Shown here piece after piece: positions 10,673 through 54,470 of a stretch of DNA of 64,000 bases. The position numbers were made by a program, and so were the translations under genes. The notes beneath the pieces are model-generated. The model ran no database searches, was not told where the DNA came from, and saw only the letters and a list, made by a program, of their open reading frames with translations. The DNA is from the human T2T-CHM13v2.0 reference genome, Homo sapiens: the NCBI RefSeq assembly GCF_009914755.1, contig NC_060931.1; one strand, written 5' to 3'. How positions within the stretch are numbered: the stretch's first letter is position 1; each line of letters starts with the position of its first letter.

Positions 10673-10724
10673 ATTACCTGGATTTTTATCCAAACTCTCT
10701 TTTGTCTTTACTCCTTAAGTCAGA

Positions 10725-10875
10725 GCTTAACCATGATCACCTGGGAGCTTTGGAAAAAATACTGATGCCTGGGTCTCAATCCCAGAGTTCTGATGTCATT
10801 AGTTTGTGATGGGGTCCTGGCATGACTATTCTTGAAAAGCTCCCCGTGATTCTAGCATCCAACCAGGGTTCACAA
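10725..10875. mobile_element. MER5A/B-like fragment
   Basis: atcacctgggagctttggaaaaaatactgatgcctgggtc...cccagagttctgat...aaagctccccgtgattct. Confidence 0.7.
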
Positions 10876-10919
10876 TAATAGCCTTAAGGATTGCTTGGTG
10901 GAAGACCATTGCAGAGTCT

Positions 10920-11700
10920 AGACTCTTATTTCCTGCTCTGCACATTCACCTTGACCAATCTCATCTACTTCTGGTTTCAGTTAGCATTTACATGCCGATG
11001 ATTTTCAAACTAATATCTCTCAGCTCTCTCTGTTAAGTATGACCCATATACGTAACAACCAATTGGACAACTCCAATAGATATGTCATTAATATCTCATG
11101 ATGATCATATGTACTATATTTTTCATTATTTCTTCCCACTCATCTAAAAAATTCTTGTTCATCTTCTGTGTTTATTAGAATAGTACTACTATCCACATAG
11201 TTGTAAGAGCTAGAAATTTCAGATTCCTCTCCAATTCCTTTAAGTCTCCCTGTCTAATCAATCATTACACTCAGTTTCAACATTTTAATATCTCTCACAT
11301 TTATTCACTTCTTTTCATCTCCATTGCCATTTCCTGGTTGAGACTACCATTATTTCTTGCCTGTACAAGTTTCTCCAGAGTCCTGCTTCCTCCCTATTCT
11401 TCCTCCACACTGCAGCTGGACTGAACATTTAAGAACATGCATCCAGTTATGTCACTTCTTTGTCTCAGATCCTTCAGGGGTTCCCCCTTTGCTTTGGGAT
11501 AGAAGCCAAAGGCCTTTGCCTGACCACCAGATGCTGCCTGACATTTCCCTGTCTTATCTCCTCAAACTCATGGCTCACCATTCCTCTCCACACCATGCTA
11601 CTGTATAGGTATAGGGAACTGTGTGTAGTTTCCCAAATTCATGTGTTCCTCCATGTACCCACCCATAACTACACTGAAATGTCCTGCCTTTTCGTCCAGT
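10920..11700 (+). mobile_element. L2 fragment
   Basis: Pyrimidine-rich L2 ORF2/3' signatures (catgccgatgattttcaaac, ccacactgcagctggactga, atgtcacttcttt, gatagaagccaaaggcctt). Confidence 0.65.
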
Positions 11701-12835
11701 TCACCAAATAGTTTTAAACCTTCCCTGTGTGTAGGGAACTCTGTCTTGATCACCACTTGTATACATAGGCATTTACACAATGTCTGGGGGTATAGTTGGC
11801 ACTACAACACATATTACTGGCTACCTACTATGTTTCAAATATCATGGGGCTTACATCATGGTAGATTAAATGTTTGGTGATTGGGAAATAGATCCTTAAT
11901 TATTTTATTATATATCGATAAGCTCAGAGAGGTTTAATAATTTTCTAAGCATCAAAGCAAAAAGATGAGACTGAGGCTAAGTTTGATGTAGGTTGGCTGG
12001 CTCCAAAGCTCTTGTTCTTTCCACATTAATATGTTATACACACAGATGCTTTGTGAAGAGGCTATAATAAAGACGACATTTACAGTAGATGCCTCTGATA
12101 CTTTGAAATGTTTCCTAGGTTATCATTGGGATTTCCTGGCTTTTCCAATCAACCTATGGCCTCTAACAAGCTCACAAAACAGCAGGCTGAAGCTATGTTC
12201 ATCTAAAAGCAAAACATTTGGTCAATTAAACCAATTTAATAAAAAAACTGAATTTATTGGAAGGACAGCAATTTTCTTCTTGAATAGTTAGTTTGGCATC
12301 ATGTGGGCAAAGCATTAAACTCTGGAACGTTTTTTCTTCTCCCGATTTAAATTTGGAATTTGAAAGTATGGCTTTCCTTGTGCTTCCTTTCTTCAAATTA
12401 TGCAGGAGAGTAACTGTAGGTCTCAGAGACAGGTGCCTATAAAAGCTAGGTCAGTAAAGCAAATGAATGGACAAGGTTGTGTCCGTTCAATAACAGGTGC
12501 ATGAAGACAAATGTATGTTGTGGTAATGTTAAAAAGGAATACAAGACTATGAAGGGTGGAAGAGGGAGAGATGAGTGTTGCAGAAATGTTGACTGAAAAG
12601 GAAAAAATAAAGACCAGATTTTAGGGAATAGAGCAGAGAGGGCAAAGAAATTTCAGTGAAGACCCTGCTTCCACTGGGTTCACGTAGAAGGAGAAAAACA
12701 CTCCCTCTTGAGGGTGACAAGGTGACTATGGCAACCATCTTGAACCGGAACCAGGCCTGAATTTATTAACTCTGTGAGGAGTTTGCACTATAGGTTGAGG
12801 AACGACAACCAAATGGATAGAAAAATCTATCCTAA

Positions 12836-13114
12836 CGCAGGAATAGAAAAGCAAATACTGCATGTTCTCACTTATAAGTGGGAGCTACATGATGAGAACA
12901 CATGGACACACAGAAGGAAGCAACACACCCTGGGGCCTGTTGGGAGGTGGAGTGTGGGAGTAGGGAGAGGATCAGCAAAGATAGCTACTGGGTATTGGGC
13001 TTGACACCTGGGTGACAAAGTGGTCTGTGCAGCGGACCCCCATGGCACAAGTCTGCCTGTATGGCAGACCTGCATATGTACTCCTGAACTTAAAATAAAA
13101 GTTAAATTAAAAAA
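12836..13114 (+). mobile_element. 5'-truncated L1 3' end (L1PA-old/L1PB)
   Basis: caaatactgcatgttctcacttataagtgggagct...cctgaacttaaaataaaagtt plus A-tail; degenerate TSD aaaa(a/g)tctat(c/t)ctaa. Confidence 0.9.
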
Positions 13115-14354
13115 AGTCTATTCTAAGAGGAATTAGTCTTGTAAGTAGATCATCCCCACACCTCCATATGAGCTGCTTGCCCCAGAATCACACATGGTCA
13201 TGAGTCAGCATCTGGGAGGGAAAACAACAGCCCCCGGACCAAGAAGGTATCACTGTCCCTTAGCACAGGGGCAGAGGGAGAGACTGACCATAGTTGCTTT
13301 CTGGAGATTTTCATGACCTAGAGGCAAGGCCCCAGAAATCTGGAAGCTAAGTGTTCTTAAAATATCTACATAAACTTATTAAAAAATCACCAGTTTTTCT
13401 TTAAGCCCGATAGTGTTTGGTTTTCAGACACTTGCAATTGTAAAAGTCCTCTGACTTTTTCAATTGTCTCTTATCAACTTATGAAAAGTTGCTCGAGCTT
13501 GCTCAAAACAAGAGAAACAAATTAAAATGAAAAGAGATGCCATTTTCACCTATCTGATTTGAAAAGATCTAAATGTTCAATAACAGGCTATGTTGGCCAA
13601 GCTGTGAGAAAGTGGGTACGCTCATACACTGTCGATGAAATATAAGCTGTTTGCAATGTTTATGAAGGGCAATGTGGGAATATTTATTAAAATAAAAAAT
13701 TCATGGACTAAACCCAGGAATTCTACTTCTAGAAATTTATTCCACAAATATACTTATACATGTGAAAAATGCTAAATATATGAGGCTATTCATTATAGTA
13801 TTGTTTATAACAATAAAAGATATAAATGAGCCTAAATGTCCATCAAGAGAGACTGGTTAAATGAAGTATGGTACAACCACATGGTGGAATACTCTGATAT
13901 ATGTTGTTTGGTGAATCAATTAATTTTGTGCTACCACTTGTATAAAAGGAAGGGGACAGAAAATGTTTATTCAAATATATGTCAATCTCTGGAAGGACAT
14001 GGAAGAAAATAATGAGTGGTTACATATTTGGGAAGCAGGCATGAGGACTTACCAGATGAGACAAAGTTGAAAAGGAGCTTTTTGTTTTTGTTTTCACTGA
14101 ATATTCCCTTATTCTTTTCATATAAATTTATTCCTTATTTTTACAAATCCAATAAATTTATTTTAAAGTAAGTAACAGAGTCCTAACTGATTTATTATAA
14201 TGATAAATCACTAAACACATGTGTAGAGATCCTGGCACTGACCTGTTGGCTGCGTACATTGACACATCAAACTTCTTTGCCTTCCAGAATTTCTGATCTA
14301 TTGCAGCTTTGAAAGATCAGGGCTGTAGTGCTCAAAAGAGATATTCCATGATTA

Positions 14355-14373
14355 AAATGGCCCCTACAGGACA
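14355..14373 (-). promoter_or_regulatory. Conserved core motif copy 1 (CTCF-like / splice-acceptor-like)
   Basis: Minus strand TGTCCTGTAGGGGCCATTT. Confidence 0.55.
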
Positions 14374-16181
14374 AATTGAGAAGTTTCATTATTTTGGTCC
14401 CCCTTTAAAGACAAGAGTTTAGAAAACGTGGTTGGGAGTTGTGACCATGGATTTCTGCTTCCTGTTGCTAGAAATAAAAGTTTTGATAATTACCAATATA
14501 AGCACTACCAACAAAGCCAATTTGTAGAGAGCACATTGGGATGACAGTATGCTGAAAGAAGGAAATATACCTGGATTCTGACACTGCTCTTGTCACTCAT
14601 ATCTTTATGACTATGGGCTAAGATTCCTAATATTTCCAAGCCTTCATTTCCTCATTTGTAAAATGTAGACAATATTGCTTTCCTTTAAATGTCTAGCATG
14701 CTAAAGTTATCTCTTTATAACTCAGAACTTTGGTAAGTCAGGGATGTTCAAACCTTAGGCAATCCCAGGTCCTCCAAACTCACACGACAGGAAGTGGGCA
14801 GCTCAAAGTCACAGCCAAACACAGACCATTTCAAAGAAAAATTTTCCAGAGAACAAAACCAGAAGGGCCAGATTATATTGCTAAGGAACTCTAAGACATG
14901 ACATGGACTGTGTTCTAGGCAGCACTGTTGTGTTTCCCATTTTCTGTGCTTACAATGGAGTCTTTACGGCACTTATATTATCCTTTATCAATTAATAGTT
15001 TGTATATTGATTGAGGATGATTAATGTTATGATGTATTATAAATTACTGGGCCATGAGAAACCAAGTCTAGATATAAGCAAGAATGCATATCACTTAGAT
15101 ATTACAGATTTGAAGTAATAAACACTAGGTTGCCTCCCTCTAGATAAGGAGTAAATGATTTTAAAATTTTTCTGTAGACATGAGCACTTTTTGAGATGTA
15201 TGTATAGGGAGAGAGATACATGTAGATGCTGGGTACCCATCTTGGTACTCATTCATTTTCCTTTATGTTACACAACTCTAATTTTCCTTAGGAAAATTCT
15301 AATCCTACCTCTGATCCTTCACCTTGAAATCAAAGTACATGCATGTCCAGTTATGTGAAAAATGAATTTCCTCTCTTTGATTCAGTCACTATGAGTCTGG
15401 TATTCTAACCCTTGTGAGTGGAAAAATCTCGGCTAAATGCAATGGTTCTTTAATAAATGAAACAATGCATAACCTCATTTAGAATACAAGAAATAAGAAT
15501 AAAATCACACAGACACTCCAGGTTTCCACAATCAGATTTGCAAATATCCAATATATTGATAACTCATTTTTTGTGTAACTTATGACAGAATAGGAATTAT
15601 GATACTTTGCTGGTGGGAGTGTTAAAATGGTACAATACATATGATGAGTAATTTGGAAATGTTTGTCAAAATTCAAATGCATTTACCTTTTTGCTCAGCA
15701 ATTTCATTTCTAGGATTTATTCTGCAAATAGACTCTTACATGTGAAATAAAGTAATATGTATTCCTTACATTATTATCTGTAACAGTAAAATATATCAGT
15801 CTAAAAGTCTATCAACAAGGGCCTGGATAAATGAAAAATTATCATACAGGGGAATACGTGGAGCTGTAAAAAAGAATGAGGAATTTCTTTTTGTCTAAAT
15901 ATGAACATACCTTCAAGATATGTTAGGAGAAATTTTTAAAAGTGAAGATGTTTGTGCAAAATATTTGTGTAAAAATAGAAAGAAGAAAGGAAATGTCTTT
16001 TCGTATTTGCTTGTATGTGTATGAATATCTCAGTAAAGATAGAAAATAAACTGAGAAGTATCGTTACCCACGGGGTGGAGGTGGAACATGGGTTTGGGGG
16101 ATAAGATTGGAAGGGGGATTTTTTTCACTGTATACCTTGTATTTTCAAATCTTGGGAACCACATAAACTCTTCACAACAAT

Positions 16182-16213
<32 letters not shown>

Positions 16214-16410
16214 TATTTAAATATATATATACACATATATATTTAAACAAAAAAATACAGTAACAGTAGAGTGAGGTTGTGGAGTTCTAAGCCATATATG
16301 GATTGCTGGTGCTGAAATGTCAGCTGCGTAAATTGGATGAGCGGGCTTTCTTCCACCTTCTAGAATGTCAGCTCGGTGCTGCAGTGCTGAAAAGAGTTAT
16401 CCCGTGGCAA

Positions 16411-16429
16411 GAGTGGCACCTACAGGGCA
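16411..16429 (-). promoter_or_regulatory. Conserved core motif copy 2
   Basis: Minus strand TGCCCTGTAGGTGCCACTC. Confidence 0.55.
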
Positions 16430-18030
16430 CAGTAAGAATCTTATGTTTCTTTTTTTATTTTTATTTTTCAGAGAGGTGGAGGTGGCGTATGGATAGAGGT
16501 GTAATGATTGGTTTTCTATTGGAGTTGTTGGACAAGTGTTTTGACCATCATCATAGATTTACCATCAGATACAGCTGGATACAAATCCTGTTCCTATAAT
16601 TTACTGTCTGGGTAGCTTTAGGCAAAGGCACTTATGTTTATTAAAAGCTATAGTTTCTACCCTTGTAAATTGTGGATGATAATATCTACCCTATCACAGT
16701 TTGGCTAATAAATTTTAAGTGAATTGTGTCACTTACGGAATACCAACCTTGCCGCCAAAATGTTCCTGTGATTGCTCAATGTCAGAGACAACCCCAAACC
16801 TGCATCAATAGGAAATGAGATGCTAAAGAAATACAGCCCAAGGAAGGAGCTATGAGGATGCAATCTAGAAGCTTCCCAGTCCAGCAAGTGAATGGAGAAT
16901 GCCTGGGCAGAGGGAGCAGGAGAGAGAAAGAGTGAAGGGAGAGAGGAGAGAAAGGACGTGCACACTTCAATGGCATTCTTTGAATACTTTGATGGCATAT
17001 TGGAAGCCCTGAATTTACCTCTGATTTTTCTGTTGTAAGGACAATAACTTTCTTTTTCTAAAGCTAGATTGAGGTGATTTACTTGTAATTGAAAAAAACT
17101 TCTAACAATATCTAATGGTGCATACTAAAAGCCGCTCATCCTCACTCATAATAAAAGTAGAAATTAAAAATGAGATGACATTTTCTACCTATTATATCAG
17201 CAAAAAGTTAAATTAAAATTGATAACACATTATATTGGCCAAGCTGTGGAGAAATAGGCCTTCTCATATTTTACTGATGAGCAGTTTAACAACTCCTGAA
17301 GCAGGCAAATTAAACATATTTGTTAAGATGCAAATATATGTATCTTTCGACCCAGCAATTATGCTTTTGTGTAATTTGTCCCACAGATATATACTCAATC
17401 CTGTGAAATGAGGCATGTACAAGGCTATTCAGCATTGTTCCAAAGAATAAACAATAAGCATCAAACGTTCATCACTGGAGAAGTGATTTCATTTACATGG
17501 TGGAAAACTCTGAATCCATTAAAAGGAATAAAAAAAATTTTAGAAACTGATAATGGAAAGTTCTCTATAATATATAGCTGTTTAGAAAAATACAGGGAAA
17601 GAATATGAAGAACTTGCTGTAATTTATGCTTAAAGGGGTGGGAGAAGGAATCTATGTTCATGTTTAGTTGCATGTGCACTAAAATCTCTGGAAGAATATA
17701 CAAAAAGTGGAATAGCATGGCAAAGGCTACGTAGAGGAACTTGGTAGAAAAGGGACAGAGATAAAGGGATTCTTTTTCAATGAAGACGTTTTTGCACATT
17801 TTAATTTTTGAACCCTGTAACTGCACAACCGATTCAAAAATGAAATAAGATTCCAGGGGAAAAGATTTCACTTCTATGTTGGAGCTGTGGAACTCTAAAC
17901 CCAGGGGTGGGATGTGAGGGGTCCTTAGTTTGAATTGTGTGTAGACTAGACTCCATCTTCTAGAATTTCTAATCCTTTCCAGCCTTGAGGGAACCAGTTG
18001 CAGAGCTGATCAAGAAATATCCCAGGGTTA

Positions 18031-18049
18031 CAGTGGCACCTACAGGACA
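18031..18049 (-). promoter_or_regulatory. Conserved core motif copy 3
   Basis: Minus strand TGTCCTGTAGGTGCCACTG. Confidence 0.55.
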
Positions 18050-19049
18050 AACGGAAATGTTTCAGCTTGTTTCTTGGTGCTTTTTTTGTGGAGCAGGGGG
18101 AGTCAAAGTTTAGGAGGACAGAGATAAGGAGGTGACGTTACAGTTGCTAGTTACTGCAAACATAATTTTTATACCAGTATATTAGAAGCTTAGACCTTAG
18201 AGCTAAACACCCGTGATTACAAACATCGTGGCTTTGTCACCTGCTCTTTGTTATACCCCTGTTGTATGGCTTTAGGTAAAGGAACTTAACATTTCTGAGT
18301 TATAGTGTCTACTTGAAATATGTGAAATATGCTGTCTATATTACAGGTTAATGCCTCAGTGTTTTAAGAGACTTATTTTACCAGAGAAACTCCAAACCTG
18401 GCAAACAAAGGCCTGTGAGTACTCAACCCTTAAGACAATCCTAAATGCCCCAAACCTATCCCAGCAGGAAGTGAGCTGCTAAAGAGATGTAGTCCACAGA
18501 GGAGGCCTCCAAACCTGTGGGCTACATCACCCAGAGTTCGTCAGGGCCACGGAAGATAAGGGACAAGGAGATCCTTGTGGAGAACTCATCAGGGCAGCCA
18601 GATTGGCTAAGGAGCTCACATCACCTCCAGGTCAGGATACTTTGTGTTTCCAGTCCTACACATCATGGGAATTGCTACGCACCAGGAATTGCTACACTTT
18701 TTGCTGCTTCCCATTCTCTTCCTTATCAAATGGATGATTTTTTTGATAATTATCCTATTCTTTCTCTGTCCCTTCATGTATTGCATTTGTGGTTATATTG
18801 GAGCCATAGTTTGCTGAGCCAGAAGGAACCACCACACCAGGGCCTGACTAAGAAGAATCACCCAGAAATCCTGGACTTGGAGCTATAACTAGATAAGTCT
18901 TTGTGTGGTCTCCCTCTGAGAAGAGGAAAGTGCACTTTCCATGGTATCTAATTATGGCTTCATTAGGTAGGCACTGGCGTTTTTGAAGGGATATGTGAGA
19001 GTAGAAGGGACAGTGTGTTGTTGAAGGTGTGAATTACAGCTAAAACCTC

Positions 19050-19350
19050 TGTTGTTAGCCAAGCCAGCGCTTAGTTGTCTTTCTACATTTAATGTCACTT
19101 TGATCTTCTGTTGGACACCTGGAATCCATGCCTCTCACATCTCTCAATTCACCTAGTTTGAGTGATTTTGGCTCTATCCCCGGCTCCAGAAGTGGTTGTA
19201 TGACTCAGGCCTGGCCAGTCAGAACACTGCATCCTGTTCAATTCAGGTCAGAGAGACTCAGGGCAAGCAAGATCTCTCTGCTGAGATTGGAGCTGCGAGA
19301 ATGAAGGGGAAAGGAGCCTGTCTAAGGACAGGGCCAAGACAGAGGGAGCT

Positions 19351-19383
<33 letters not shown>

Positions 19384-19565
19384 TTGAGAGAATGAGAGCG
19401 AGAGTGCGAAAGAGAAATCACAGTCGGGGGTGACATTTAAGCCTTTGGAGTAAGGCCCATTGGACATTCTCCATCTAGGCTTTTCAGTGATGAGAAAATA
19501 AACATCTTGCTTGAGCCAGGTAGACTGCGGCTTTCTATTGCTTGCAATCAAAACAGTTCTAAATC
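19050..19565 (+). mobile_element. Old MLT1 (J/K-like) LTR with a (GAGTGA)n microsatellite
   Basis: gtatgactcaggcctggccagtcaga; 3' end aaataaacatcttgcttgagccagg...ttgcttgcaatcaaaa; hexamer repeat at ~19351-19385. Confidence 0.7.
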
Positions 19566-20414
19566 AAATGGCTCTTAAACCAAAAGATGCTCAAACTCAT
19601 AATAATAAGAAAATAATTGATACAACTTTTTTTTTTTAACTCTCAGATTGATTGGCAAAAATTCAAAACATACTGTGTTGGCCAAGCTTTTGGGAAATAG
19701 ACAATTTTTACATGGCTGCCAGGAGCACAAGCTGGTACAAGCCCTGTGAAGGGCAATTTGAAAATGCCCGTAAACATGACAAATACATGTATCCTCAGAT
19801 GCACGACAAAGTGAGAATTTTTCTGTTTTTTCATTATTTTTTTCTGACTGGCAGAGAAATTCAGCAGGAATTCTCAGATATATTTAGGTATATTGACACA
19901 CATGCAAAATGGACCCTATACAAAACTTCTCATTTCAGTATTATTTTAAATGGCAAAACAATCAACTTACATGTTCATCAATAGAGAACTGGGTAAATAA
20001 ATTTTGGTGTATCCATAAACTGGGAATACTTCAAAGCTAGAGAGGTGGGGGCAAAGAGGAATTTTTATGTACTGATATACAGGATTTCCAAGATATAGTA
20101 TTATATGGAATAATTAAGACACAGAAAAAAAGGTGTTATAGTACATTATCATGCAAAATAAAAAGTTGCTTTTAAAGTATTTGCTTGTATGTGCATAAAA
20201 TGGTCTCTGGAAGTATAAAAGAAACTAATAACTTTGCTAACCTTTGATATGTAATAGGTAAAAGGGAAATTTTTTAGCATATTCTTTTTATCATTTTAAT
20301 TTGTTTTTGAGCCATATGAAAACATTACTTATTCAAAAACTAAATGAATATAAATTTTTAAATTTTCTCATTAGGACCTACAAGCTAAAGAACAGTTAAA
20401 AAACAGGCAGTGAA

Positions 20415-20671
20415 AAGATTCCAGGGGAAACGATTTCACTTCTGTGTTGGAGCTATGGAACTCTAAACCCAGGGGCGGGGTGTGAGGGGTCCTTAGTTTG
20501 AATTGTGTGTAGACTAGACTCCATCTTCTAGAATTTCTAATCCTTTCCAGCCTTGAGAGAACCAGTTGCAGATCTGTAAAGAAATATCCCAGGGTTACAG
20601 TGGCACCTACAGGACAAACGGAAATGTTTCAGCTTGTTTCTTGGTGCTTTTTTTGTGGGGCGGAAGAGTCA
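20415..20671 (+). repeat. Recent ~257-bp direct copy of 17847-18105
   Basis: Near-identical (about 95% by eye) to 17847-18105; flanked by 24-bp imperfect direct repeats at 20393-20416 and 20670-20693. Confidence 0.95.
20598..20616 (-). promoter_or_regulatory. Conserved core motif copy 4 (inside the recent duplication)
   Basis: Minus strand TGTCCTGTAGGTGCCACTG. Confidence 0.55.
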
Positions 20672-20838
20672 GTGAAACAACAGGCAGTGAAAAAAAAAAA
20701 ATACACCAATCTTACTGATCCAGGCAGTGAAATGCATAAGTTGAATGAACCAGCTTCTTCCATTTTCTATGAATATCTGGTCTATTGCAGCCCTGAGAGA
20801 TCTGTGCTATAAAGCTGGAAATAGATGTTCTGTGATGA

Positions 20839-20857
20839 GGGTGGCACCTGCAGGACA
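20839..20857 (-). promoter_or_regulatory. Conserved core motif copy 5
   Basis: Minus strand TGTCCTGCAGGTGCCACCC. Confidence 0.55.
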
Positions 20858-22429
20858 AAGTGAGAATTTTTCCTGTTTTTTTTTTTTGTTTTTTTTTTTA
20901 ATTGTTTTCTTACTAGCAGAGGAAATCAGCGGAGCATGGAGAGGGCAGGTATTGAGCATGAATTTTCCCCTTAGAGTTGCTAGATGTAAAAGTTTTACTA
21001 AAAATAATGGAGACATTGCAAACAAAACTATTTTTATATAAGGCACACACAGAGAATCAGTGTGGAATAGAGAGGTAAAAGTAGACTCTGGTAACATATA
21101 TTGGCTTTGTCACTCCCCAGCTTTGTGGATTTAGGCAAAAACCACATAACATGACTGAGCTTAGAGGCTACACCTATAAAATGAGGGCAATAAAACTCAC
21201 CTTAAAGGACTGTTGTCTCTTAACTTTTGAAGGGAGTTTCTTAGCCAGAGAAACCCTAACCTGACAAACAGTAGCCTTCAATTGCTCAATCCCTGAGGCA
21301 ATTCCAGGCCCCTAAACCCACTCACTCAGGAAATGAGATGTTGAACAGATGCAGTCCATGGAAGGGGCATCCTTCTGAAAGTCCTCACTTTAAATGGGCC
21401 ATGGAGGATAAAGGACAGGAGAGAAACTTCCAGGGTGGCTAAAGTCATATGACAAAATAGCTCACCTCAACTCTGGAAAGCCAAATGAAAGCCTTTACTT
21501 CAATTGTGATCATCTCTCCCTGTTAAGTGTGTAATGTGAATTACGGTTTTCATTTAATCATAGTTTGCTGGACTATGAGAAGCCACATTAGGACCAAGAA
21601 AAATATTCATCACCCAAAGATTCTGGACTTAGAGTGACAACAAGTTTACTTACGAGTTTGGAGTTGTTCACCTCACCTCCCTCTGAGATGTGGATGAGCA
21701 CAGTTTTTACTGTGAGTAGCGTAGCTGCACTGTATTGACATGGGCACTTCTGAACATGTACGTACAGGTAGAAGGATGTGCTGTTCCTGTGACTCAGGCC
21801 TGGACAAACAGAGCTGTCCCTCCCCACTTTATAGTGATGGTTCAGGGATAGGTACATGAGAAAATTGAAGTCAGTTAGAGTCAGGCCTAGGACTTTCTGC
21901 CCAAGTTGAAGCTATGAGAATGAAAGCCTGGTACTGCCTGGAGGTGGGGAAGGTGGGGAGAAAGACAGAGAGAGAGAAACAGAGACAGAGATTGGAGCAG
22001 AGCCAGGTTTGATGAGATCTTTGGGTTCTTGGATTGAGGCATGTCTCCAAATGCACCTACTGACTTTATTTTATCTGAATATTTATTTCTATTCTTAAAC
22101 CAATTGAGCTGCATTTTCTACCACTTGTAACTGGATTTATATGAAAGCTGTCATACCCCATCATAGAAAAAAGAAATGCAAGCTGAAACTACACAGATAA
22201 CATTTTTCACTTCTCATATTGATAAAAGTCCAGAACATTTGGTAACACACGGTGGACAAGCTGTGGGGCAGAAGGCAGTCACACACAGGATTGGAGGAAG
22301 TATAACCTGCTATAATAGAACCCTTACGGGGGGAAGTTTGAAAATTCTATAAAAATTACAAATGCATCTACCCTTTCATCCAAAAAGTCCACTTCTATGA
22401 ATTTATTGTGCATACATCCTTGCACAAGA

Positions 22430-23890
22430 GAAAGACCAGTAGGCCGGTTATTCTCCCTTGGCCTCCCTGCCTCATTTCCATTCTTTTCTGCCATGTGTTT
22501 GGTCTTTTTCTGCCATGCATTTGGTCCAGGAGGCTGACCTCTACTGAATGCAGCACACAGTATCCTCTAGTGTACTCTGTAGTATGCAGCAATATTATAA
22601 TTACTCAGGTTATCATTGGTTTGGGATGCAGTAGAAGTGAATGGCAAGGCATGATCAAATGACTATAGCTCTTAATAGCTATGGCAACATGTGGTCATTG
22701 CAGTTTGTCATCTGGCTACTCCTAATGACCTTGGAGAGCTAGAGAAAGGAAATAAAAGCCTGAAGACTTGAACTTCCAATGTAGAGAACGAGGAGAGAAT
22801 CAAAAAGCCTCAATGGTGATATTAAAATAATTCTTATTTGTAGAGTGCAGACAACTAAATATTAGGCCCAAGGACTGACTGTATGTGATGCAGAGAAGAA
22901 GCAGCATTTAGATGTTCAACATCTCCAGGTGTCATGTGCCAATGAAGGCACTAGTTAATAAGGAGTGGGATTCTGAGACTTGGAGTAGAAACAGTTGGTT
23001 AACCATGCAAGACTGTGAGTCTTGAACCCTGAAATCTCCCTGAATCTTCCTTGCCTAGGTAAGAAGCCCATCCCTTTTCCCCCTTTCCCAAGGGATTTTG
23101 ATTTCCTTTACATAAATTTCTTTTGTTGACTTAACCTAGAGCAGTTCTCTCACAAGGGGAATCAATCCTCCCCAACACAGCCTCGCCAACCCTCATTTAC
23201 CTCCAGACCCACGGTAAGAGTTAAATACCAGCAAAGCCCAAAGGGAGAGTGTGAGGCTGGCTCTGAGAGGAGATAAAAAACATACTGAATGAGTTGAGAC
23301 ATCTTGTCCCCTTGTATTGGTAGGGGTCTAGGGAGCATACAAAGGCAATGCTTCTAAGTGTGTTAGATGAAACATAAGATGATATCTGGCCACATTTATA
23401 GATAGAGTTGCTCACAGAGGATTCATAGTTTAATGTGTTGGCTGGAGCACCTGGCTGTGATTAACTGAAGCCTGGGCACTGGTGACCTACAGCTAATGAG
23501 GCTATGAGGCTGGAATTTTTCGAGTAAGCTGTACGTAGCAGAGTTCAAAGACTTGTGAATATGGAAATGTTGAGTGGATCTCTATATATACAGGTTGCAT
23601 AGCCACCTCCCACACCCAATTATAACTAGCAAGAGAGATCAGAAGATATTTTATTCATCATCCTTTATTTATTAAAAAGTGCCTTAAAAAGTTCTATCTT
23701 AAAAGCCAGATTTAGTAGGCACGTGATAATGATAGATATGTTGCCCTGGAATAGGGTCTGATTTCATGGGAATAATAAGATCCTAGAATGGTAGATGCCA
23801 AGTGGCTCTGCTTTACCATCAGAGATAAAACGGGAGTGATTATTTTAATGAGTCACAGGGACCTGGTAATAATCAGAGTGTTTGACTCAT
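22430..23890 (+). mobile_element. ERVL-class LTR piece plus internal (gag-like) remnant inserted in the L1ME of unit 5
   Basis: The L1ME breaks at ~22425 and resumes at ~23900 (ttgaaatcaacctaaatg). The insert has ERVL gag-like signatures (aaggagtgggattctgagacttgg, ctccagacccacggtaagagttaaatacc, gttcaaagacttg...ggaaatgttgagtggat). Confidence 0.65.
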
Positions 23891-24210
23891 AGGTTTATTA
23901 TATTGATATTATGTTAATGGAGTTGGTAAACAGAAAGTAGCAAGCACCTTGAAATCAACCTAAATGCTCATCAACAGGGAACTATCTAAATGAATTGTTG
24001 TACATTCATACAACGGAATCCTATGCAGTTGTGTAAAAATATAAAGAAACTTTTTATGCACTGATATAGAAATCTCTAGTGTATATTTTTACGTAAAAAA
24101 ACAAAGTACAGAATAGTCTGTATAATATGCTGCCATTTGTGTAATCAAATGAGGCAGTAACAAGTATTTATATATATAAATATGTGTATCTATATATATA
24201 AATGTGTGTG

Positions 24211-24251
<41 letters not shown>

Positions 24252-24605
24252 GAATGATGCAAGAGGTGACTAACTGTGGTCATCTGTTTTGAGGTCACAA
24301 ATAAGAAGCGGACAGACAAGGGTACTTGGTAGTGAAAGGGAGATTATTTATTATATGCCTTTTTATACTTTCTATTTTTTGAATCATGTAAATATTCTCT
24401 ATTCAAAAGCTTAGAATTTTTTATAAAAGGAAAAATGCAATTATTACACATATATAGAAGCTACAGAGCTGTAAACACACGCATAGATTTATCAAAATGA
24501 ACCGTCAGCTACATAAATTGCCTTCTTCTGTCTTCTAGAATTTCTGGTCTATGGCAGCCCTGAGAAATCAGAGTTGAAGAGCTGGAAAGAGATATTATAT
24601 GGTTA

Positions 24606-24624
24606 TAGTGGCACCTGTAGGATA
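24606..24624 (-). promoter_or_regulatory. Conserved core motif copy 6
   Basis: Minus strand TATCCTACAGGTGCCACTA. Confidence 0.5.
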
Positions 24625-25845
24625 AACTGAGAAATTTTGCTTGCTGGATTCAGGTTTTTTTTTCCCCCTAAAAAGTATGCATTAGAGGGAGGGGCTGGTG
24701 AGTCTTCAATGAAATAACTGAGCAGAAATGTTTAAATAATGAATGATGAAATATTCTAACCATAGAGCAGAGTGATGAGATAAATGTAGTTTCAGAGCCT
24801 CAAACACTTGGCTTCATGTTTTCTCTCTGCTGTTTTAGGTAAATGAAAAAAAATATCTCTGAAACACGAGTTTCTTCATGTGTAAATATGAAATATTAGT
24901 TTCTTCATGTGTAAATATGCACAACCCTGCCCATTTTGCAGAGCTGGTGTAGTATGAGAGCGAGTACATGTAACCTGCTGAATTTGCAGCCTGGCACACA
25001 GCTGGTTCTCGGTAATCTTTAACCAGTGCATTTTTGCCATTTAATGTATCCTTTGATATTACTGCACTCACCCCATAGACTCACTGTTTCAACCCCACCC
25101 CACCATGATGCATTATCACCTTTTATTCACTTTTCTACAAACAAGCTCCTCACACCAAGCCTAATTTAGATTCCTTGCATCTCTTAATATCAAACTAGTA
25201 CAGCCGCATCTCTCCACTCCTCACTGAACTCATGATTTGGGACCATTTTTTGAAACTCTTGATTTGTCTATTTCATTTTCCAGGAAACATATCACAAATT
25301 ATATTTATACATTTTTTTGTACCTGATAATAAGATGCATTTATCCACATAATGACATGACATTTTCTCCTCCGGGATTGTTATTAAGCTTGAGCCTGACC
25401 TTTTTGCACCTTCAGAATGTAAATGTTCTTCTGAATCTCTGTTAGTTTTATGTATATATGCACAGCATCATGTTTTTAGAATGATATGCTTCTGTATGTG
25501 TATAAGACTAAAGCAAAATAGAATTTGAGATCAAGAACTGAAAGAAATTCATTAGCAATCTTAAAACACGAATAAATTTAAAAGATATTGTAACTCAGTA
25601 AAGGAATATTTACTAGTGTAACAGACTAAGCAGACATGATTTTTAAAAGTAAACAAATAGTTACTAGAAATATACACAGTTATGTTTAAACCTAAAATAG
25701 AAGGTGAGTTGATTTTCTACTCCCAAGATGCTTAGACCAAATGGATAAGAGAAAACTAGACAGTAAAGGATGTGATAATTATGATTTGAAACAGTGGAGG
25801 ATCTAGACAGAATTAGGAAAAAAGAGAAGAAATAAACCTCTGTTT

Positions 25846-25860
25846 CCAACAGATGGTGCT
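25846..25860 (+). promoter_or_regulatory. Candidate CTCF motif (forward)
   Basis: CCAACAGATGGTGCT versus consensus CCASYAGRKGGCRS; motif match only. Confidence 0.3.
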
Positions 25861-28800
25861 GCATATCATAAATATTTTGATGAATATAATGACCCCAGGG
25901 GGTTCTGGGCCCGTCAATTAACACTCTAATGGGAGATTTCAACAATCCATATGACAGGATTTACAGAGAGTGACCAGTCATGATTACTAAAAAAAAAATC
26001 TATGCTATAGCGAGCATAAAATAGGTTCAACCACAGAATAATAAATACAAAATATGGCAAATATATAATACACAATATTATTAATTACAAAATATTGCTA
26101 AAGAATTCAGATATCAAGTTAGAGAATTAGAAACCACATGGCAATAAATGGATATATGGATATCATGTTCCTTGACACTACCACACTAACATTAAAAAGC
26201 AAAGGAAGGGGTGGAATTCAGACAACATACAGGTCACAGACAAAAGATAGTCATTATTTCAATATCTGAAAATATCAGTGAAATATTCAGTCATTATCTG
26301 AAGTGGATGTTTGCAGGGTGGAAAATTAGATGGTAAAATCCAAACAAGAGCTTAACAGCTAAACTGTGGAAGGGTTTCAGAAAAGTAAAACAATACTGAT
26401 AAAACTGGGAGAGAGAGCATGGGCGTAATGCACACATATAAGATGAATTGTTGTTTATGTAAGTGTAATTAAGGTTAGTACACTTACAAGGCAGGATGTC
26501 CCCAGATCCAACTACAATTATAAGAGCGACTAAAAATACAGGTGGGATGTAATGATGTCCCAGTTGAGATAAACATGGTAAGGACACTGTTATTAGACTA
26601 CTGAAAAATGTGGAGATTATTTGGTACTAGAGCAGATCTAAAAGAAATAGACCAAAAGAAAAAAAAAAAGAAGGAACTGATGGGGAAGGTAGGGGAGTTG
26701 AGGACACACCGAAGAACCTAATAGAAAATAAAAGAAAGAATAAGAAGAACTTCTGCTTATTCTAGACATGAAAAGAAATAGATAGAACCATCTTAAGAAT
26801 AGGTAAGCCCCATGAGACAGAATAGTAGACCACATAGGGATAAATGGCTTTCATGCAGCCCAAAAGTAAAGAACTTCTGCTGTTCCAACAAAGGGAAAAA
26901 AGGAAGGGACTGTTACTATCAAAAACAGTAAGGATAAGCTTAGACTACAGAGACAAAACCCAGAGCTCTAAACTAGAAACATGGCATTCTTTTATCTTTC
27001 CTGATCACATTTTTCCTATATTATCTATTAAAATGTAATTGTGCAAATAATGTTATAATAGCATTACTACATACAGAATCATAAATATCAATAATTTCAG
27101 GAAAAATGCCTGAGTATGCATAAACGAAATGAAAAGAAAAATTTAAACTGTTAGGAGGAAGCATTTCTGTAGGAGTCCTGGTAAAATGAAGCCTAGGATC
27201 AGCCAGTTGTCTTCCCAGAACATGAAGTATCTTTAACAGCAAATTCCAAATGAGTAACTGGAACAGACCTGATAAAAGAAAATTATAGGACATTGAAGAA
27301 AATAAAATCAATTTAGTAGTATATATTTCTATTGAAGAGGCAAAACTGACACCAGTGACATTACTCACATTGGATTGTGATGTGTCATATCTATTCTCTT
27401 AACTAAAGTTTATTCTTGAAAGCTTTGTAAAATTTATTTGGTGGTGTGAATGGGGGAAGTTTTATTATAATTTTGGATCATTTATTTAACGTGTACATAT
27501 GAACTATTTAGATTTTCTTTTTCTTCTTCAGTCAGTTTCAGTGAGTAATATTTTTCTGGAAATTTGCCTGTTTTACTTAGGTTTTCAAATTCACTGGCAT
27601 AAAATTGTCATTGAGGTGGCAGTAGGAATGGCAGTCCAATGGTTCCTTTTTAATAACCTTTTGAAATAATTATAGACTTACAAGAAATTGCAAAAGTAGT
27701 ACAAACATGTTCCATGTACCCTTTCTTCAACTCACCCCAATTCTAATATCTTACATCTACTAGCACATTACCAAAATCAAATACTGTTGATTAGGCTACG
27801 CACCTTACTTGATTCCACCAGTTTTTACCTGAACTGATTTTTTACATGTATATAGTATATATACATGTACATAGTTTTAAGAGATTTTACCACTTGTATG
27901 GATTCACACAGCTACCACCACAAGATATGGGGCTGTTCCATCATCACAAAGACCCTCCCTCATGCTACCTTATTACAGTCAGATCCTCTTTGCCCACCCA
28001 CCTCCCTAACTCTGACAATCACTGATTTCTTCTCCATATCTATAATTTTGTCACATCAAGAGGGTTACGTAAACTGAATCATACAGTAAGGAACTCCTTA
28101 ATATTGGCTTATTTCACTCAGCATAACTGTGTTCATAACCAATATATGATGTTCTACATTTCTATATGTGCTTTTATTTACAATCTACATTCCTTCTTTG
28201 GTTATATGTCTGCTTCAGTCTTTTACCTTTTTTTTATTGTGGTGTTTGGTTTTTTTTTTTTTTGTTAAACTTGGGGAGTTCTTTATAATACCATTGTCTT
28301 ATTGGTGATTTGCAAATAAACTTTCCCAGTCTGTGGCTTGTGTTTTTATCCTCTTAATGAGGTATTTCACAGAGCAGAAGTTTTTAAGTCTGATCAAGTC
28401 CAATTTATCAAATTTTCTTTCATAGATTATGCTTTTGGTATCACATCTAAGATCTCTTAGACCCAAGTCACAAAGATTTTTTTCTACAATGTTTCCCATA
28501 TAAGTATTATAAATTTGTGTTTTACATGTAGACTTATAGTTCATTTTGAGTTAATTTTACATAAGGTGTGAGGTTTAGGTAGTAGTTCATTTTTCTGGCT
28601 GTGAATGTCCAATTTTCCCAGTGCCATGTATTGAAAATGTCACCTTTCCTTTATTGATTGCTTTCACATTTTTATCAAAATCTGTTGTCCATACCTTTAA
28701 GGGATCTCTTTCTAGGTTCTTTGTTCTGCTCCATTGATCTATGTGTCTTTTTCTGCATGATTCTGTCTTGATTAATGTAGCTGTACAGTAAGTCTTAGAC

Positions 28801-29212
28801 CAAGGTGGCCTGATTTCTCGAACTTTATTACTTTTCAAAAATATTTAGCCTACTCTAGTTTATTTGCTATTTTACATTAATTTTATATTAACCTAGATTA
28901 TATCTACAAAAATATTATGAAGATTTTGATATGAATTGCACTAAATCTATAGATACATTTAGGAAGAATTGACATTTTTCTAGGGTAAGTCTTTCAATTT
29001 ATGAGAATAGTGTGTCTTTTCATTTTATTGCTGCTTCTGTTATTTATTTCATCAGCATTTTGTACTTGACAGCATACCGTCCTGTAAATGTTTTCTAAGA
29101 CAGACGCCTAATAGTTAAATTTTTTTAGTGATTTTAATTGGTCTTGTTTTTTAAGTTTTGGCTTTCAATGTTAGTTGCTAGTCTATGGGAATATTATTGA
29201 TTTCTTGATCAA

Positions 29213-29600: not shown

Positions 29601-29679
29601 GATCCTGTGACCCTGATAAACTCATTTATTAGTTCAAGGGATTTCTTTTTAACTTTTGGGGATTTTTTTTAATATACAC

Positions 29680-52006: not shown

Positions 52007-52372
<366 letters not shown>

Positions 52373-53181: not shown

Positions 53182-53509
53182 GAAGTCTAAAGTGGGAGAG
53201 AGACGTCGCTCTGAATAAGTAAGAAGTCAGAGAAGGGGCGCAGGCAGGGAGTTGACAAGGCAGGGAGAGCCTTGGAGCAAGGACACAGGAGTCTCAGGAG
53301 CTGAATGCGACAACGGAGAAGGTCCCTGGAAGGGATTCTGATGACTGCTCAGGTGACCCTTCTGCATGACTCTGAAGTGTAACCTCAAAAATCATGTCGT
53401 GCATGGGGTAACTGGATTTCATCTGGAAAGTGGTGAAGGGGCTGATTGGTACCAAGCTGAGTATCTGGCTGAAACAGAAGCAGTGGGCAGACAGTGGCCA
53501 TTAACAATA

Positions 53510-54470
53510 CTGATAGCTAGTAGTTATCGAACTTGGGGAGTGTGCTAGGAGCTGGATGATGAACTTCAGATACTTCATTTCAAATCCATACAACTCTAAA
53601 AAATGGGCTTCATGATCCATATTTCACACCTGAAAGAATAATATTCCAGAGGCTATTAAATGCCTTCACTGAAAAATACAACTAGTAAGTGGGAAGCACT
53701 TTTCCTGGATGCCCTAAATTAAACATACCTTTGCTTGCAGTAGTTCCATCAGTGTTTATGGAACTTCTTTGTCTAACAACTCTAATGGGAAATCCATGAT
53801 CACCCACCTCCAGCTATGTTCCAGCTATAGTGCTCTTCTGCTCAGCAAATAAACTAACAAATTCTCAGTTTGTCCTGCAGGTGCCACCCTTGCCATGAGA
53901 TAGGTCCCCTGAGTGCTCAGGCATTCATGACTCAGGACTGCAATTGATCAGAAATTCTCAAAGAAGAAAGAAGCCTAATCATCTAATGTATGAAACCTAC
54001 GTTTCAGGATCATGACCCTCACATATGGATTTACAGTTTCCTAGATCCAATAATTAATTAGAATTATTCCTTTTTTATATTTTGTTTTTAAAGTATTTGA
54101 TCTATTTTTGAGTAGATAATACATTTATATGGTTCTTAATTCAAAACATATAAAAATATACAGTGGAAAAAACTCTCTTCTACCACTGTCACCCATTTGC
54201 CTAGTTTTTATGACCCAAATAGAAAAACGACTATTATTAGTTTCTTGTGTATCTTCCCTGAGTAATTTTATGCATATACAACCAAATATAAATATATATT
54301 GCTTTGCCATATTGTTCTACACGAATATTATACAAGCTGTTTTGCAACTTCTCAACATTAATATATCTTATAAATCTTTATTTTTAAACAACTGCATGGT
54401 ATTTTATTATATGGCCAAATTATAATTCGTTTAATCAGTACTCTATATTTTAGGTTGATTTTAATCTCTG
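53510..54470. repeat. Inverted sixth copy of the array unit (MIR - core - L1ME 3')
   Basis: Antisense MIR at ~53515-53695; core at ~53860-54010 (gcaattgatcagaaattctc...gaagcc); antisense L1ME 3' at ~54090-54470; mirror image of the units at 13-25 kb. Confidence 0.8.
53871..53889 (+). promoter_or_regulatory. Conserved core motif copy 7 (forward)
   Basis: TGTCCTGCAGGTGCCACCC; 31/32 identical to copy 5 over aaattctcaNtttgtcctgcaggtgccaccct. Confidence 0.55.

What the first reader, a model, noticed from the sequence alone, without database searches (positions are those of the whole stretch)
13400..24960. Hidden ancient tandem array: ~5 units of MLT1-L1ME-unique core-MIR-LTR that look like ordinary scattered repeats
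Seen: the same ordered fragments recur with a 1.5-3 kb period. MLT1 3' ends lie at ~13400, 17050, 19500 and 22100. Each is followed by an L1ME piece starting at the same point (~13500, 17130, 19585, 22150; also ~15470). Next comes a ~130-bp non-TE core (14243-14390, 16300-16440, 17940-18060, 20716-20870, 24500-24640), then a MIR, then a shared LTR-like block (~14720, 16740, 18380, 21245). Established: MIR, L1ME and old MLT1 predate or accompany the eutherian radiation. Inference: the unit amplified early in placental mammals and decayed below segmental-duplication detection thresholds, while the core stayed recognisable, which suggests selection on it.
Basis: partly seen in the sequence, partly recalled or inferred. 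Interest (0 to 1): 0.8.

Follow-up and report, generated by a model that had tools for sequence, protein, structure and literature searches.

The report
Ancient five-unit tandem duplication of repeats
A 12-kb stretch between PDK4 and DYNC1I1 is a very old, heavily decayed five-fold tandem duplication of one block of dead mobile-element fragments, and nothing found here shows that it does anything.

Summary
Window ~13,140-25,157 is a direct tandem array of five units, 1.7-3.0 kb each. Each unit has the same order: LTR-like piece, 5'-truncated LINE-1 3' fragment, ~160-bp locus-specific core, SINE-sized old repeat, shared block.

- **Array is real:** unit-to-unit alignments are colinear over 1.0-2.1 kb (E 1e-38 to 1e-85), all on the + strand. 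Shuffled controls gave 0 hits.
- **One insertion, then copied:** the L1 piece starts at the same truncation point in the units.
- **Age:** units are 60-66% identical (K2P ~0.5), which I read as roughly 90-150 Myr. That is far below segmental-duplication thresholds.
  - a second core in unit D, a 262-bp insert 95% identical to unit C and flanked by a 15-bp direct repeat;
  - an inverted 1.06-kb partial copy at 53,404-54,467;
  - a 1.5-kb insertion in unit E.
- **Core:** it has no kin elsewhere in the genome. It is no better conserved among paralogs than the dead L1 piece, so selection is not supported.
- **Names:** only L1 was confirmed with tools. MLT1 and MIR rest on recall, because no repeat library was available.

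The finding is ordinary and of low interest.

The parts
13140..13475 (+). LTR-like piece before unit A (left edge of the array)
   Evidence: 13267-13475 aligns with unit C's LTR-like end 19397-19576 in both directions, weakly (E 0.035 and 0.091). The stretch 13140-13266 is assigned by eye only. No kin elsewhere in the genome by BLAST.
13476..14200 (+). Unit A: 5'-truncated LINE-1 3' fragment (end of ORF2 plus 3' UTR; the gene remnant is broken)
   Evidence: 11 dispersed hits in both orientations in 264 kb; 6 of the 11 begin at 13476-13479. A stop-free stretch hits only human L1 ORF2p in the PDB (3 of 3 hits, E 0.35). The 3' limit is inferred from unit B's long hit.
14245..14406 (+). Unit A core (locus-specific)
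   Evidence: Alignments A1 and A2. nhmmer finds 5 other direct cores and the inverted one, and nothing else in 264 kb. Genome BLAST hits only the array.
14524..14700 (+). Unit A SINE-sized old repeat (MIR-like by recall)
   Evidence: Hits L013:4914-5029 at E 0.02. The reverse search gives E 0.0012. L013:4826-5070 is itself one of 7 places of an interspersed family in the sample.
14720..15315 (+).
   Evidence: 14746-15228 aligns with D 21284-21786, E 6e-10. A 13401-15315 aligns with C 17059-19138. No kin elsewhere.
15350..15453 (+). A/B junction: remnant of the LTR-like piece (most of it deleted)
   Evidence: B from 15367 aligns with A from 13387. A's block end at 15315 corresponds to C 19138, so about 350 bp present in C is missing here.
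15454..16286 (+). Unit B LINE-1 3' fragment
   Evidence: 6 of 8 dispersed L1 hits begin at 15453-15455. The longest runs 15454-16286 against L008 7530-6743.
16319..16473 (+). Unit B core (carries a ~20-bp internal deletion)
16556..16724 (+). Unit B SINE-sized old repeat
   Evidence: Hits L013:4912-5042 at E 0.07. The reverse search gives E 0.0011.
16743..17122 (+). Unit B shortened shared block plus LTR-like piece
   Evidence: 16606-16850 aligns with C 18260-18506 (E 2e-15). 16838-17116 aligns with C 19281-19569 (E 1e-6). 16762-17091 aligns with D 21828-22133. About 775 bp present in C is missing.
17123..17900 (+). Unit C LINE-1 3' fragment
   Evidence: Dispersed hits begin at 17123 and 17126, which is 2 of 3. 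Aligns with A 13484-13897 at 70% identity.
17924..18093 (+). Unit C core (source or partner of the young copy in D)
   Evidence: 17847-18105 is 95% identical to 20415-20671.
18153..18380 (+). Unit C SINE-sized old repeat
   Evidence: Aligns with D 21015-21171 and B 16608-16690. It has no dispersed hit of its own.
18380..19140 (+). Unit C shared block (the fullest copy)
   Evidence: 18381-19023 aligns with D 21245-21786, E 7e-25. No kin elsewhere in the genome.
19140..19584 (+). Unit C LTR-like piece (MaLR/MLT1-like by recall only)
   Evidence: 19194-19547 aligns with D 21783-22130, E 2e-9. It also aligns with B 16883-17120. One weak dispersed hit, L009:295-371 on the minus strand, E 0.012.
19585..20340 (+). 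Unit D LINE-1 3' fragment
   Evidence: 19581-19993 aligns with C 17126-17487. Dispersed hits to L020 and L005.
20417..20678 (+). Young 262-bp duplicative insert in unit D, holding core D1 (20492-20660)
   Evidence: 95% identity over 259 bp to C 17847-18105 (alignment A4). Flanked by a perfect 15-bp direct repeat at 20402-20416 and 20679-20693.
20727..20901 (+). Unit D original core (D2)
   Evidence: Colinear with D's old flanks: A 14223-15227 aligns with D 20712-21785. Also.
20948..21208 (+). Unit D SINE-sized old repeat
   Evidence: Aligns with A 14437-14687, E 3e-7.
21245..21786 (+). Unit D shared block
   Evidence: No kin elsewhere except two short simple-repeat hits.
21783..22158 (+). Unit D LTR-like piece
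   Evidence: Aligns with C 19197-19549 (E 5e-9) and B 16762-17091 (E 4e-6).
22159..22435 (+). Unit E LINE-1 fragment, left piece
   Evidence: Dispersed hits begin at 22159-22169 in 3 of 3. Aligns with A 13512-13769.
22436..23909 (.). ~1.5-kb insertion inside unit E's L1 piece, identity unknown
   Evidence: The L1 coordinates on its two sides are nearly contiguous: L005 8409-8646 and 8721-8961. There is only one dispersed match, G000:C2:145186906-145187039, 72% over 134 bp.
23910..24250 (+). Unit E LINE-1 fragment, right piece, ending in (TA)n/(AC)n simple repeats
   Evidence: The mir-297 hit in Rfam at 24177-24249 is this simple repeat.
24504..24668 (+). Unit E core
24669..25157 (+). Unit E post-core stretch; right edge of the array
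   Evidence: C 17488-18421 aligns with E 24001-25014. E 23946-25157 aligns with the inverted copy. 24900-28000 has no further homology to the array or to the flanks of the inverted copy.
53404..54467 (-). Inverted partial unit (L1 3' end, core at 53833-54000, post-core stretch)
   Evidence: nhmmer E 1e-15 to 7e-23 against all five units. Identity 61-69%, K2P 0.40-0.56, as between the direct units.

Best explanation
This is an ancient tandem segmental duplication that has since decayed neutrally.

**Starting segment.** One roughly 2.4-kb genomic segment already held:
- an LTR-like piece;
- directly after it, a 5'-truncated LINE-1 3' fragment covering about the last 185 codons of ORF2 plus the 3' UTR;
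- a stretch of locus-specific DNA, the 'core';
- a SINE-sized old repeat;
- a further ~0.8-kb block.

**Amplification.** This segment was amplified head to tail to five units. The mechanism is inferred to be out-of-register exchange or a replication-based process.

**Events of about the same age.** One 1.06-kb piece was also copied in inverted orientation 28 kb downstream.

**Later changes.**
- Deletions at the A/B junction and in unit B.
- A 1.5-kb insertion in unit E.
- In the primate era, a 262-bp duplicative insertion of unit C's core region into unit D.

**What is shown and what is inferred.**
- Shown: the array, its colinearity, the shared L1 junction, the uniform divergence and the later events.
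- Inferred: the mechanism, the absolute age (~90-150 Myr) and the lack of function.
For: - **Colinear alignments:** they run 1.0-2.1 kb between units and cross the L1/non-L1 boundaries.
- **Strand:** 35 of 38 self-hits are on the same strand.
- **Controls:** 0 hits in shuffled controls.
- **Shared L1 truncation point:**
  - Dispersed L1 alignments begin at 13476-13479 in 6 of 11 cases, at 15453-15455 in 6 of 8, at 17123-17126 in 2 of 3, and at 22159-22169 in 3 of 3.
  - Dispersed copies L005, L010, L013 and L020 run on 0.57-1.1 kb further 5'.
- **L1 identity:** unit A's piece aligns with L020 8610-8183 (E 1e-12). A stop-free 236-aa stretch of L020 matches human L1 ORF2p residues 1025-1260 of 1275 at E 2.7e-155.
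- **Tree:** the five array L1 pieces form one clade in an NJ tree. Mean K2P is 0.63 array-to-array and 0.78 array-to-dispersed.
- **Uniform divergence:** all unit pairs, the inverted copy included, have K2P 0.35-0.58. This suggests one old burst.
- **Locus-specific parts:** the core, the block and the LTR-like pieces match only the array in whole-genome BLAST.
Against: - Bootstrap support for the array L1 clade is only 99 of 300.
- The conserved columns of the core cluster more than a column shuffle allows. The best 20-column window has 10 of 107 cells differing, and 2 of 5000 shuffles reach that. This could mean constraint, although the dead L1 piece shows equally good blocks.
- The core region was copied three separate times: in the array, in the inverted copy and in the young insert.
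- No orthologous sequence from another mammal could be examined, so both the age and the neutrality are untested by comparison between species.
Confidence: 0.85

Rival explanations
1. The array is a tandemly amplified LTR element with shared LTRs. A non-autonomous MaLR-type element (LTR, internal part, LTR), already invaded by an L1 fragment and a SINE, was multiplied by ectopic recombination between its two LTRs. That would give LTR-internal-LTR-internal and so on. The core and the block would then be the element's own internal sequence. This is a special case of the best explanation that names the substrate of the exchange.
For: - One LTR-like piece lies between successive units at 3 of 4 junctions, with a remnant at the fourth.
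- The array begins on the left with an LTR-like piece. Nothing upstream of it (10,700-12,831) is homologous to the block that precedes the other LTR-like pieces.
- The mechanism is in print: passages and the Figure 1A legend of PMC5932611.
- The unit length of 1.7-2.6 kb is of the order I recall for MaLR elements.
Against: - No LTR-like piece closes the array on the right. Unit E stops at ~25,157.
- The supposed internal parts (core, block) have no kin anywhere else in the genome. The core motif is exact only in 4 cores, with 5 one-mismatch hits elsewhere. A family with many internal copies should have given more.
- The LTR identity itself is unverified.
Confidence: 0.15
2. The core is a functional repeated element that has been kept, and re-copied, by selection. 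It could be a regulatory module or a repeated exon or small RNA of the host lncRNA.
For: - The core is the part present in all seven copies. Coverage is 4.6-4.8 of 5 partners.
- It holds two ~20-bp blocks at about 9% difference, against 28% overall.
- A 19-base motif is exact in 4 of 7 cores.
- The core region alone was re-copied at 95% identity.
Against: - The dead L1 piece is as well conserved.
- There is no consensus RNA structure: -3.8 kcal/mol on the plus strand and -0.3 on the minus strand.
- No Rfam family comes near its threshold in 12,500-26,000.
- Substitutions show no codon periodicity: 24, 21 and 26 by column phase.
- No RefSeq exon or functional element lies in the array (and the gene table supplied).
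Confidence: 0.08
3. The pattern comes from independent insertions of the same common repeat families that happen to lie in the same order.
For: L1 fragments are common here. There are 12 or more dispersed L1 places in the 264-kb sample.
Against: - All units are on one strand and in one order.
- The L1 truncation point is the same in the units.
- Homology runs through DNA that exists nowhere else in the genome.
- Shuffled controls gave 0 hits.
Confidence: 0.01

Closest known systems
Ancient segmental (tandem) duplications below the classical threshold
   Same: - Low-copy duplicated segments longer than 1 kb, in tandem.
- Built largely of older interspersed repeats.
- Found only by sensitive self-alignment.
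- PMC6129265 (passages read) sets the classical cut at 90% identity and extends detection to 25% error. It lists Pu et al. 2018 on ancient segmental duplications, which I saw only as a reference-list entry.
   Different: At 60-66% identity these units lie beyond even the 25-30% error range handled there. The array would therefore probably not be in such catalogues. I did not check any catalogue.
[quoted passage not shown]
   Same: One LTR-like piece lies between successive units, and the left edge of the array is an LTR-like piece. The mechanism is described in PMC5932611 (passages).
   Different: - The right edge lacks an LTR.
- The 'internal' part contains an L1 fragment and DNA with no kin elsewhere.
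- The LTR family is not verified.
TE-derived satellites and macrosatellites
   Same: Head-to-tail copies of a unit that contains mobile-element sequence.
   Different: There are only five units, no homogenisation (60-66% identity) and no sign of ongoing exchange. The one exception is the single 262-bp young copy.
Tandem small-RNA clusters in introns of non-coding host genes (SNORD116-type, C19MC-type; recalled, not from a call)
   Same: A ~2-kb period with a short, better-kept core, inside an intron of a lncRNA.
   Different: - No Rfam hit near threshold.
- No conserved fold.
- The box-like motifs are degenerate in most copies.

Membership tests
Segmental duplication (classical definition) | Length over 1 kb | tested here: met
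   Alignments of 1.0-2.1 kb between units.
Segmental duplication (classical definition) | At least 90% identity (definition read in PMC6129265) | tested here: not met
   60-73% identity in 25 of 26 alignments. Only one 312-column block reaches 88%, and its inner 259 bp reach 95%.
LINE-1 (3' fragment) | Similarity to L1 ORF2 protein, colinear with its C-terminal end | tested here: met
   - Direct: 3 of 3 PDB hits are human L1 ORF2p, residues 1171-1215, but weak (E 0.35).
- Transitive: unit A's piece aligns with L020 (E 1e-12), and L020 matches ORF2p residues 1025-1260 (E 2.7e-155).
- Pfam gave no family for any of the 4 stretches tried.
LINE-1 (3' fragment) | Many dispersed copies in both orientations | tested here: met
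   38 scored genome matches, all in the L1 pieces or in 23,760-24,116. 11 dispersed hits for unit A in 264 kb, on both strands.
LINE-1, subfamily L1ME | Best match to an L1ME consensus in Dfam or Repbase | not testable with these tools
   No repeat library was available. The names are listed in PMC5753468 (passage). The array pieces have long branches in the NJ tree, so they belong to an old L1.
ERVL-MaLR LTR (MLT1) | Similarity to an MLT1 consensus | not testable with these tools
   No repeat library was available. The likeness of the ends at ~13,460 and ~19,575 to MaLR LTR ends is my recall only. The family table was seen in PMC5753468.
ERVL-MaLR LTR (MLT1) | Dispersed copies of the same LTR elsewhere in the genome | tested here: inconclusive
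   - Genome BLAST found none for 13120-13476, 17520-19480 or 21100-22158.
- nhmmer in 264 kb: 1 of 4 copies hits L009:294-375 (E 0.012 and 0.0013).
- L009:268-475 has 2 other kin in the sample.
- Single-sequence searches have little power at this age.
MIR SINE | Membership in an abundant ~260-bp interspersed family | tested here: inconclusive
   - 2 of 5 array copies hit L013:4881-5069 (E ~1e-3).
- That place has 6 kin on both strands in 264 kb.
- 5 other dispersed members tried gave no hit in the array.
- The name MIR is from recall.
Tandem LTR element with shared LTRs | A single LTR between successive internal parts | tested here: met
   LTR-like pieces lie at 3 of 4 junctions, with a remnant at the A/B junction.
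Tandem LTR element with shared LTRs | The array starts and ends with an LTR | tested here: not met
   The left edge is an LTR-like piece (weak). The right edge at ~25,157 has none.
Tandem small-RNA cluster (snoRNA or miRNA) | The core matches an RNA family or has a conserved fold | tested here: not met
   - Rfam E-value scan: the best snoRNA hit on a core has E 4.4. The mir-297 hit is a simple repeat.
- Consensus fold: -3.8 kcal/mol on the plus strand and -0.3 on the minus strand.

The most novel reading that the evidence does not exclude
The ~160-bp core is a working sequence module, such as a factor-binding or insulator-like element or a repeated exon of the host lncRNA, in the PDK4-DYNC1I1 gene-poor interval. 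On this reading, multiplying it is what was selected. It survives in all seven copies, holds two ~20-bp blocks at about 9% difference, and was copied again in inverted orientation and again in primates at 95% identity.
Probability: 0.07. Interest if true: 0.55.

Novelty: new member of a known kind. Interest (0 to 1): 0.22.

Why it matters
- It is a clean worked example of how an old tandem duplication can look like a run of ordinary scattered repeats in a repeat annotation.
- Five apparent L1 fragments, five LTR fragments and five SINE fragments here are one insertion each, copied five times. Counts of old insertions and ages derived from such counts are slightly inflated by cases like this.
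- The virus-derived part is at most a few hundred bases of LTR without genes. It is of historical interest only.
- Nothing found here points to a function.

Tried and rejected
**Dropped or corrected along the way**
- **RNA gene in the core:** rejected. The Rfam scan and the consensus folds on both strands gave nothing.
- **Coding exon in the core:**
  - One minus-strand frame is stop-free in 4 of 6 copies.
  - Substitutions show no codon periodicity.
  - Dropped.
- **'20 kb free of young repeats' (my own early idea):** withdrawn. The masked_repeat table is incomplete. It misses a very high-copy ~285-bp repeat at 12,832-13,116 and L1 sequence at 28,004-31,297.
- **Larger inverted duplication around the inverted copy:** none. 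The flanks 24,900-28,000, 52,000-53,500 and 54,400-56,200 share nothing with each other.
- **More array copies within 100 kb on either side:** none.
- **Naming MLT1 and MIR without a library:** a transitive single-sequence search gave only weak hits.
- **Papers:**
  - 0 papers hold LOC105375409.
  - 3 papers hold PDK4, DYNC1I1, intergenic and conserved together. Judging by their titles and abstract starts, none is about this array.
  - That is the only basis for saying the array is not in print.
  - Supplementary tables were closed. Table S2 of PMC1914374 may hold family ages that bear on the dating.

Full report

Yes.
- A sensitive blastn of window 12,000-26,500 against itself gave 38 non-self hits.
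  - 35 were on the same strand.
  - The 3 opposite-strand hits were all (AC)n/(TA)n simple repeats.
- Tandem Repeats Finder saw nothing beyond short simple repeats, as expected at this divergence.
- Single-sequence nhmmer of each provisional unit against the whole 64-kb window gave long colinear alignments:

| Pair | Coordinates | E-value |
|---|---|---|
| A vs C | 13394-15315 vs 17052-19138 | 5e-53 |
| A vs B | 13390-14828 vs 15370-16801 | 6e-38 |
| B vs C | 15412-16921 vs 17083-18569 | 2e-46 |
| C vs D | 17061-18106 vs 19517-20672 | 3e-83 |
| C vs D | 17951-19017 vs 20758-21780 | 4e-42 |

- Controls:
  - the five unit queries gave 0 hits at E<=0.01 in five locally dinucleotide-shuffled copies of the window;
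  - they gave 4 short hits, each 21 bits or less, in the reversed window.

**2. Anatomy**

There are five direct units:

| Unit | Span |
|---|---|
| A | ~13,476-15,349 |
| B | 15,350-17,122 |
| C | 17,123-19,584 |
| D | 19,585-22,158 |
| E | 22,159-~25,157 |

An LTR-like piece at ~13,140-13,475 precedes unit A. Within a unit the order is always the same:
- a LINE-1 3' fragment;
- about 50 bp;
- a ~160-bp core followed by a T-rich run;
- a SINE-sized old repeat;
- a ~0.8-kb shared block;
- the LTR-like piece that abuts the next unit's L1 fragment.

Departures from this plan:
- Most of the LTR-like piece is missing at the A/B junction.
- About 775 bp of the block is missing in B.
- Unit E's L1 fragment is split by a ~1.5-kb insertion at 22,436-23,909.
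- Unit E ends inside the post-core stretch.
- Unit D has two cores.

A further 1.06-kb partial unit lies inverted at 53,404-54,467. It holds the L1 3' end, a core and the post-core stretch. Its flanks share nothing with the array's flanks. No more copies lie within 100 kb on either side.

**3. One insertion copied, or many insertions?**

One insertion, copied.

*Only the L1 pieces have dispersed kin.*
- In the whole genome, only the L1 pieces and 23,760-24,116 have dispersed matches: 38 scored matches at 68-84% identity.
- In the 264-kb local sample, the dispersed L1 alignments begin at the same point in each unit:
  - 13476-13479 in 6 of 11 hits for unit A;
  - 15453-15455 in 6 of 8 hits for unit B;
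  - 17123-17126 in 2 of 3 hits for unit C;
  - 22159-22169 in 3 of 3 hits for unit E's left piece.
- Four dispersed copies (L005, L010, L013, L020) continue 0.57-1.1 kb further 5' as L1.
- So every unit carries the same 5' truncation.

*The piece is L1.*
- Unit A's fragment aligns with L020 8610-8183 at E 1e-12.
- A stop-free 236-aa stretch of L020 matches human LINE-1 ORF2 protein residues 1025-1260 of 1275 at E 2.7e-155.
- By that mapping the array's fragment starts near residue 1091.
- A 54-aa stop-free stretch of unit A itself hits only L1 ORF2p in the PDB: 3 of 3 hits, residues 1171-1215, weak at E 0.35.
- Pfam gave nothing for the 4 stretches tried.
- The ORF2 remnant lacks about 85% of the gene through this 5' truncation. 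It is further broken by stops and frameshifts, which I did not count.

*The pieces group together.*
- In an NJ tree of the five array pieces and nine dispersed pieces, the array pieces form one clade. Bootstrap support is 99 of 300, which is weak.
- Mean K2P is 0.63 within the array, 0.78 from array to dispersed, and 0.44 among dispersed copies.
- By local alignment the array pieces are 60-70% identical to each other and 54-65% identical to dispersed copies.

*Everything else is locus-specific.* The core, the block and the LTR-like pieces match only the array itself in whole-genome BLAST. Homology therefore runs through DNA that exists nowhere else, which independent insertions cannot explain.

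**4. Age**

*The array.*
- 25 of 26 pairwise alignments, the inverted copy included, are 60-73% identical, K2P 0.35-0.58.
- The pattern is star-like, so I infer one burst.
- Inference: about 0.23-0.3 substitutions per site per lineage. At roughly 2.2e-9 per site per year (a rate I recall, not from a call) this gives about 100-140 Myr.
- Local alignment flatters identity, so I state 90-150 Myr.
- That is near or before the placental radiation.
- Passages of PMC1914374 place MLT1A0 and the L1MA family near the divergence of mammalian orders, and older MLT1 and L1ME families before that.

*The young block.*
- C 17,847-18,105 is 95% identical over 259 bp to D 20,415-20,671.
- I infer roughly 12-25 Myr for this copy.
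- It is an insertion of 262 bp (20,417-20,678) just ahead of D's own core.
- It is flanked by a perfect 15-bp direct repeat.
- I saw no A- or T-rich tail at either end of the insert. I therefore favour template-directed DNA copying during repair or replication over retroposition. This is inference.

**5. The virus-derived part**

*Is it real?*
- The four LTR-like pieces are paralogs of one another: C vs D E 2e-9, B vs D E 2e-6, B vs C E 1e-6. The pre-A piece aligns with C only at E 0.035-0.09.
- They are therefore one old insertion copied with the unit, not four insertions.

*Family.*
- No repeat library was at hand.
- Genome BLAST found no kin.
- Only 1 of 4 copies has a weak dispersed hit.
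- I therefore cannot name the family with tools.
- Print lists MLT1 subfamilies under MaLR (PMC5753468, passage).
- Closer naming would need a library or inner genes, and I stopped there. No viral gene was seen or sought.

*Age.* It is at least as old as the array.

**6. Is the core under selection?**

Not shown.

*For the idea:*
- It is present in all seven copies.
- Its mean pairwise identity is 0.68, against 0.54 and 0.46 in its immediate flanks.
- Two ~20-column blocks have about 9% of cells differing, against 28% overall. The clustering is reached by only 2 of 5000 column shuffles.
- A 19-base motif is exact in 4 of 7 cores and occurs nowhere else in the genome. Elsewhere there are 5 one-mismatch hits, and the control gave 0.

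*Against the idea:*
- In 100-bp windows the core peaks at 0.69-0.705, while the dead ORF2 piece peaks at 0.69-0.72. The background is 0.58-0.65.
- In the same four copies, the best 20-column block has 6 of 80 cells differing in the core and 7 of 80 in the L1 piece. With three copies it is 4 of 60 in the core and 6 of 60 in the post-core region.
- Conserved islands of this size therefore arise here without selection.
- There is no consensus RNA fold.
- There is no Rfam match.
- There is no codon periodicity.
- There is no annotated exon or functional element.

**7. Comparison with what is known**

- It works like any old tandem segmental duplication.
- It fails the classical identity criterion of at least 90%, and lies beyond the 25% error limit of the extended detection method (PMC6129265).
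- The LTR-shared tandem model (PMC5932611) fits the left edge and the junctions but not the right edge.
- I could not check whether public self-alignment tracks already show the array.

**8. Verdict**

- It is a new member of a known kind, of low interest.

Noticed in passing
window 12832-13116: A ~285-bp very high-copy repeat: 3272 first-look candidates, 39 scored at 80-82% identity, with an A-rich tail at 13090-13117. It is Alu-like by recall. It lies just left of the array and is absent from the supplied masked_repeat table, so that table is incomplete.
   Followed up: partly
window 20402-20693: A 262-bp copy of unit C's core region, 95% identical, inserted in unit D between two perfect 15-bp direct repeats. 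A third copy of the same 12-mer lies 40 bp further on. I saw no A- or T-rich tail at either end of the insert.
   Followed up: yes
window 53404-54467 (minus strand): An inverted 1.06-kb partial unit with its own core, 28 kb beyond the array. It is as diverged from the units as they are from each other.
   Followed up: yes
window 22436-23909: A ~1.5-kb insertion of unknown kind splits unit E's L1 fragment. Its only match elsewhere in the genome is 134 bp at 72% identity, at G000:C2:145186906-145187039.
   Followed up: partly
window 16187-16259 and 24164-24249: (AC)n/(AT)n simple repeats lie at the same unit position in B and E, at the 3' end of the L1 fragment. They match each other and cause a spurious mir-297/mir-466 hit in Rfam, 53.6 bits against a gathering score of 90.
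   Followed up: partly
window 28004-31297: Interspersed L1-type sequence with many dispersed kin (E down to 8e-37). It too is missing from the masked_repeat table. Its kin in L005, L010, L013 and L020 are the 5' continuations of the L1 copies used to place the array's truncation point.
   Followed up: partly
window 14245-14406 and the other cores, minus strand: One minus-strand frame is free of stops across the ~102-nt core in 4 of 6 copies, but substitutions show no codon periodicity.
   Followed up: partly
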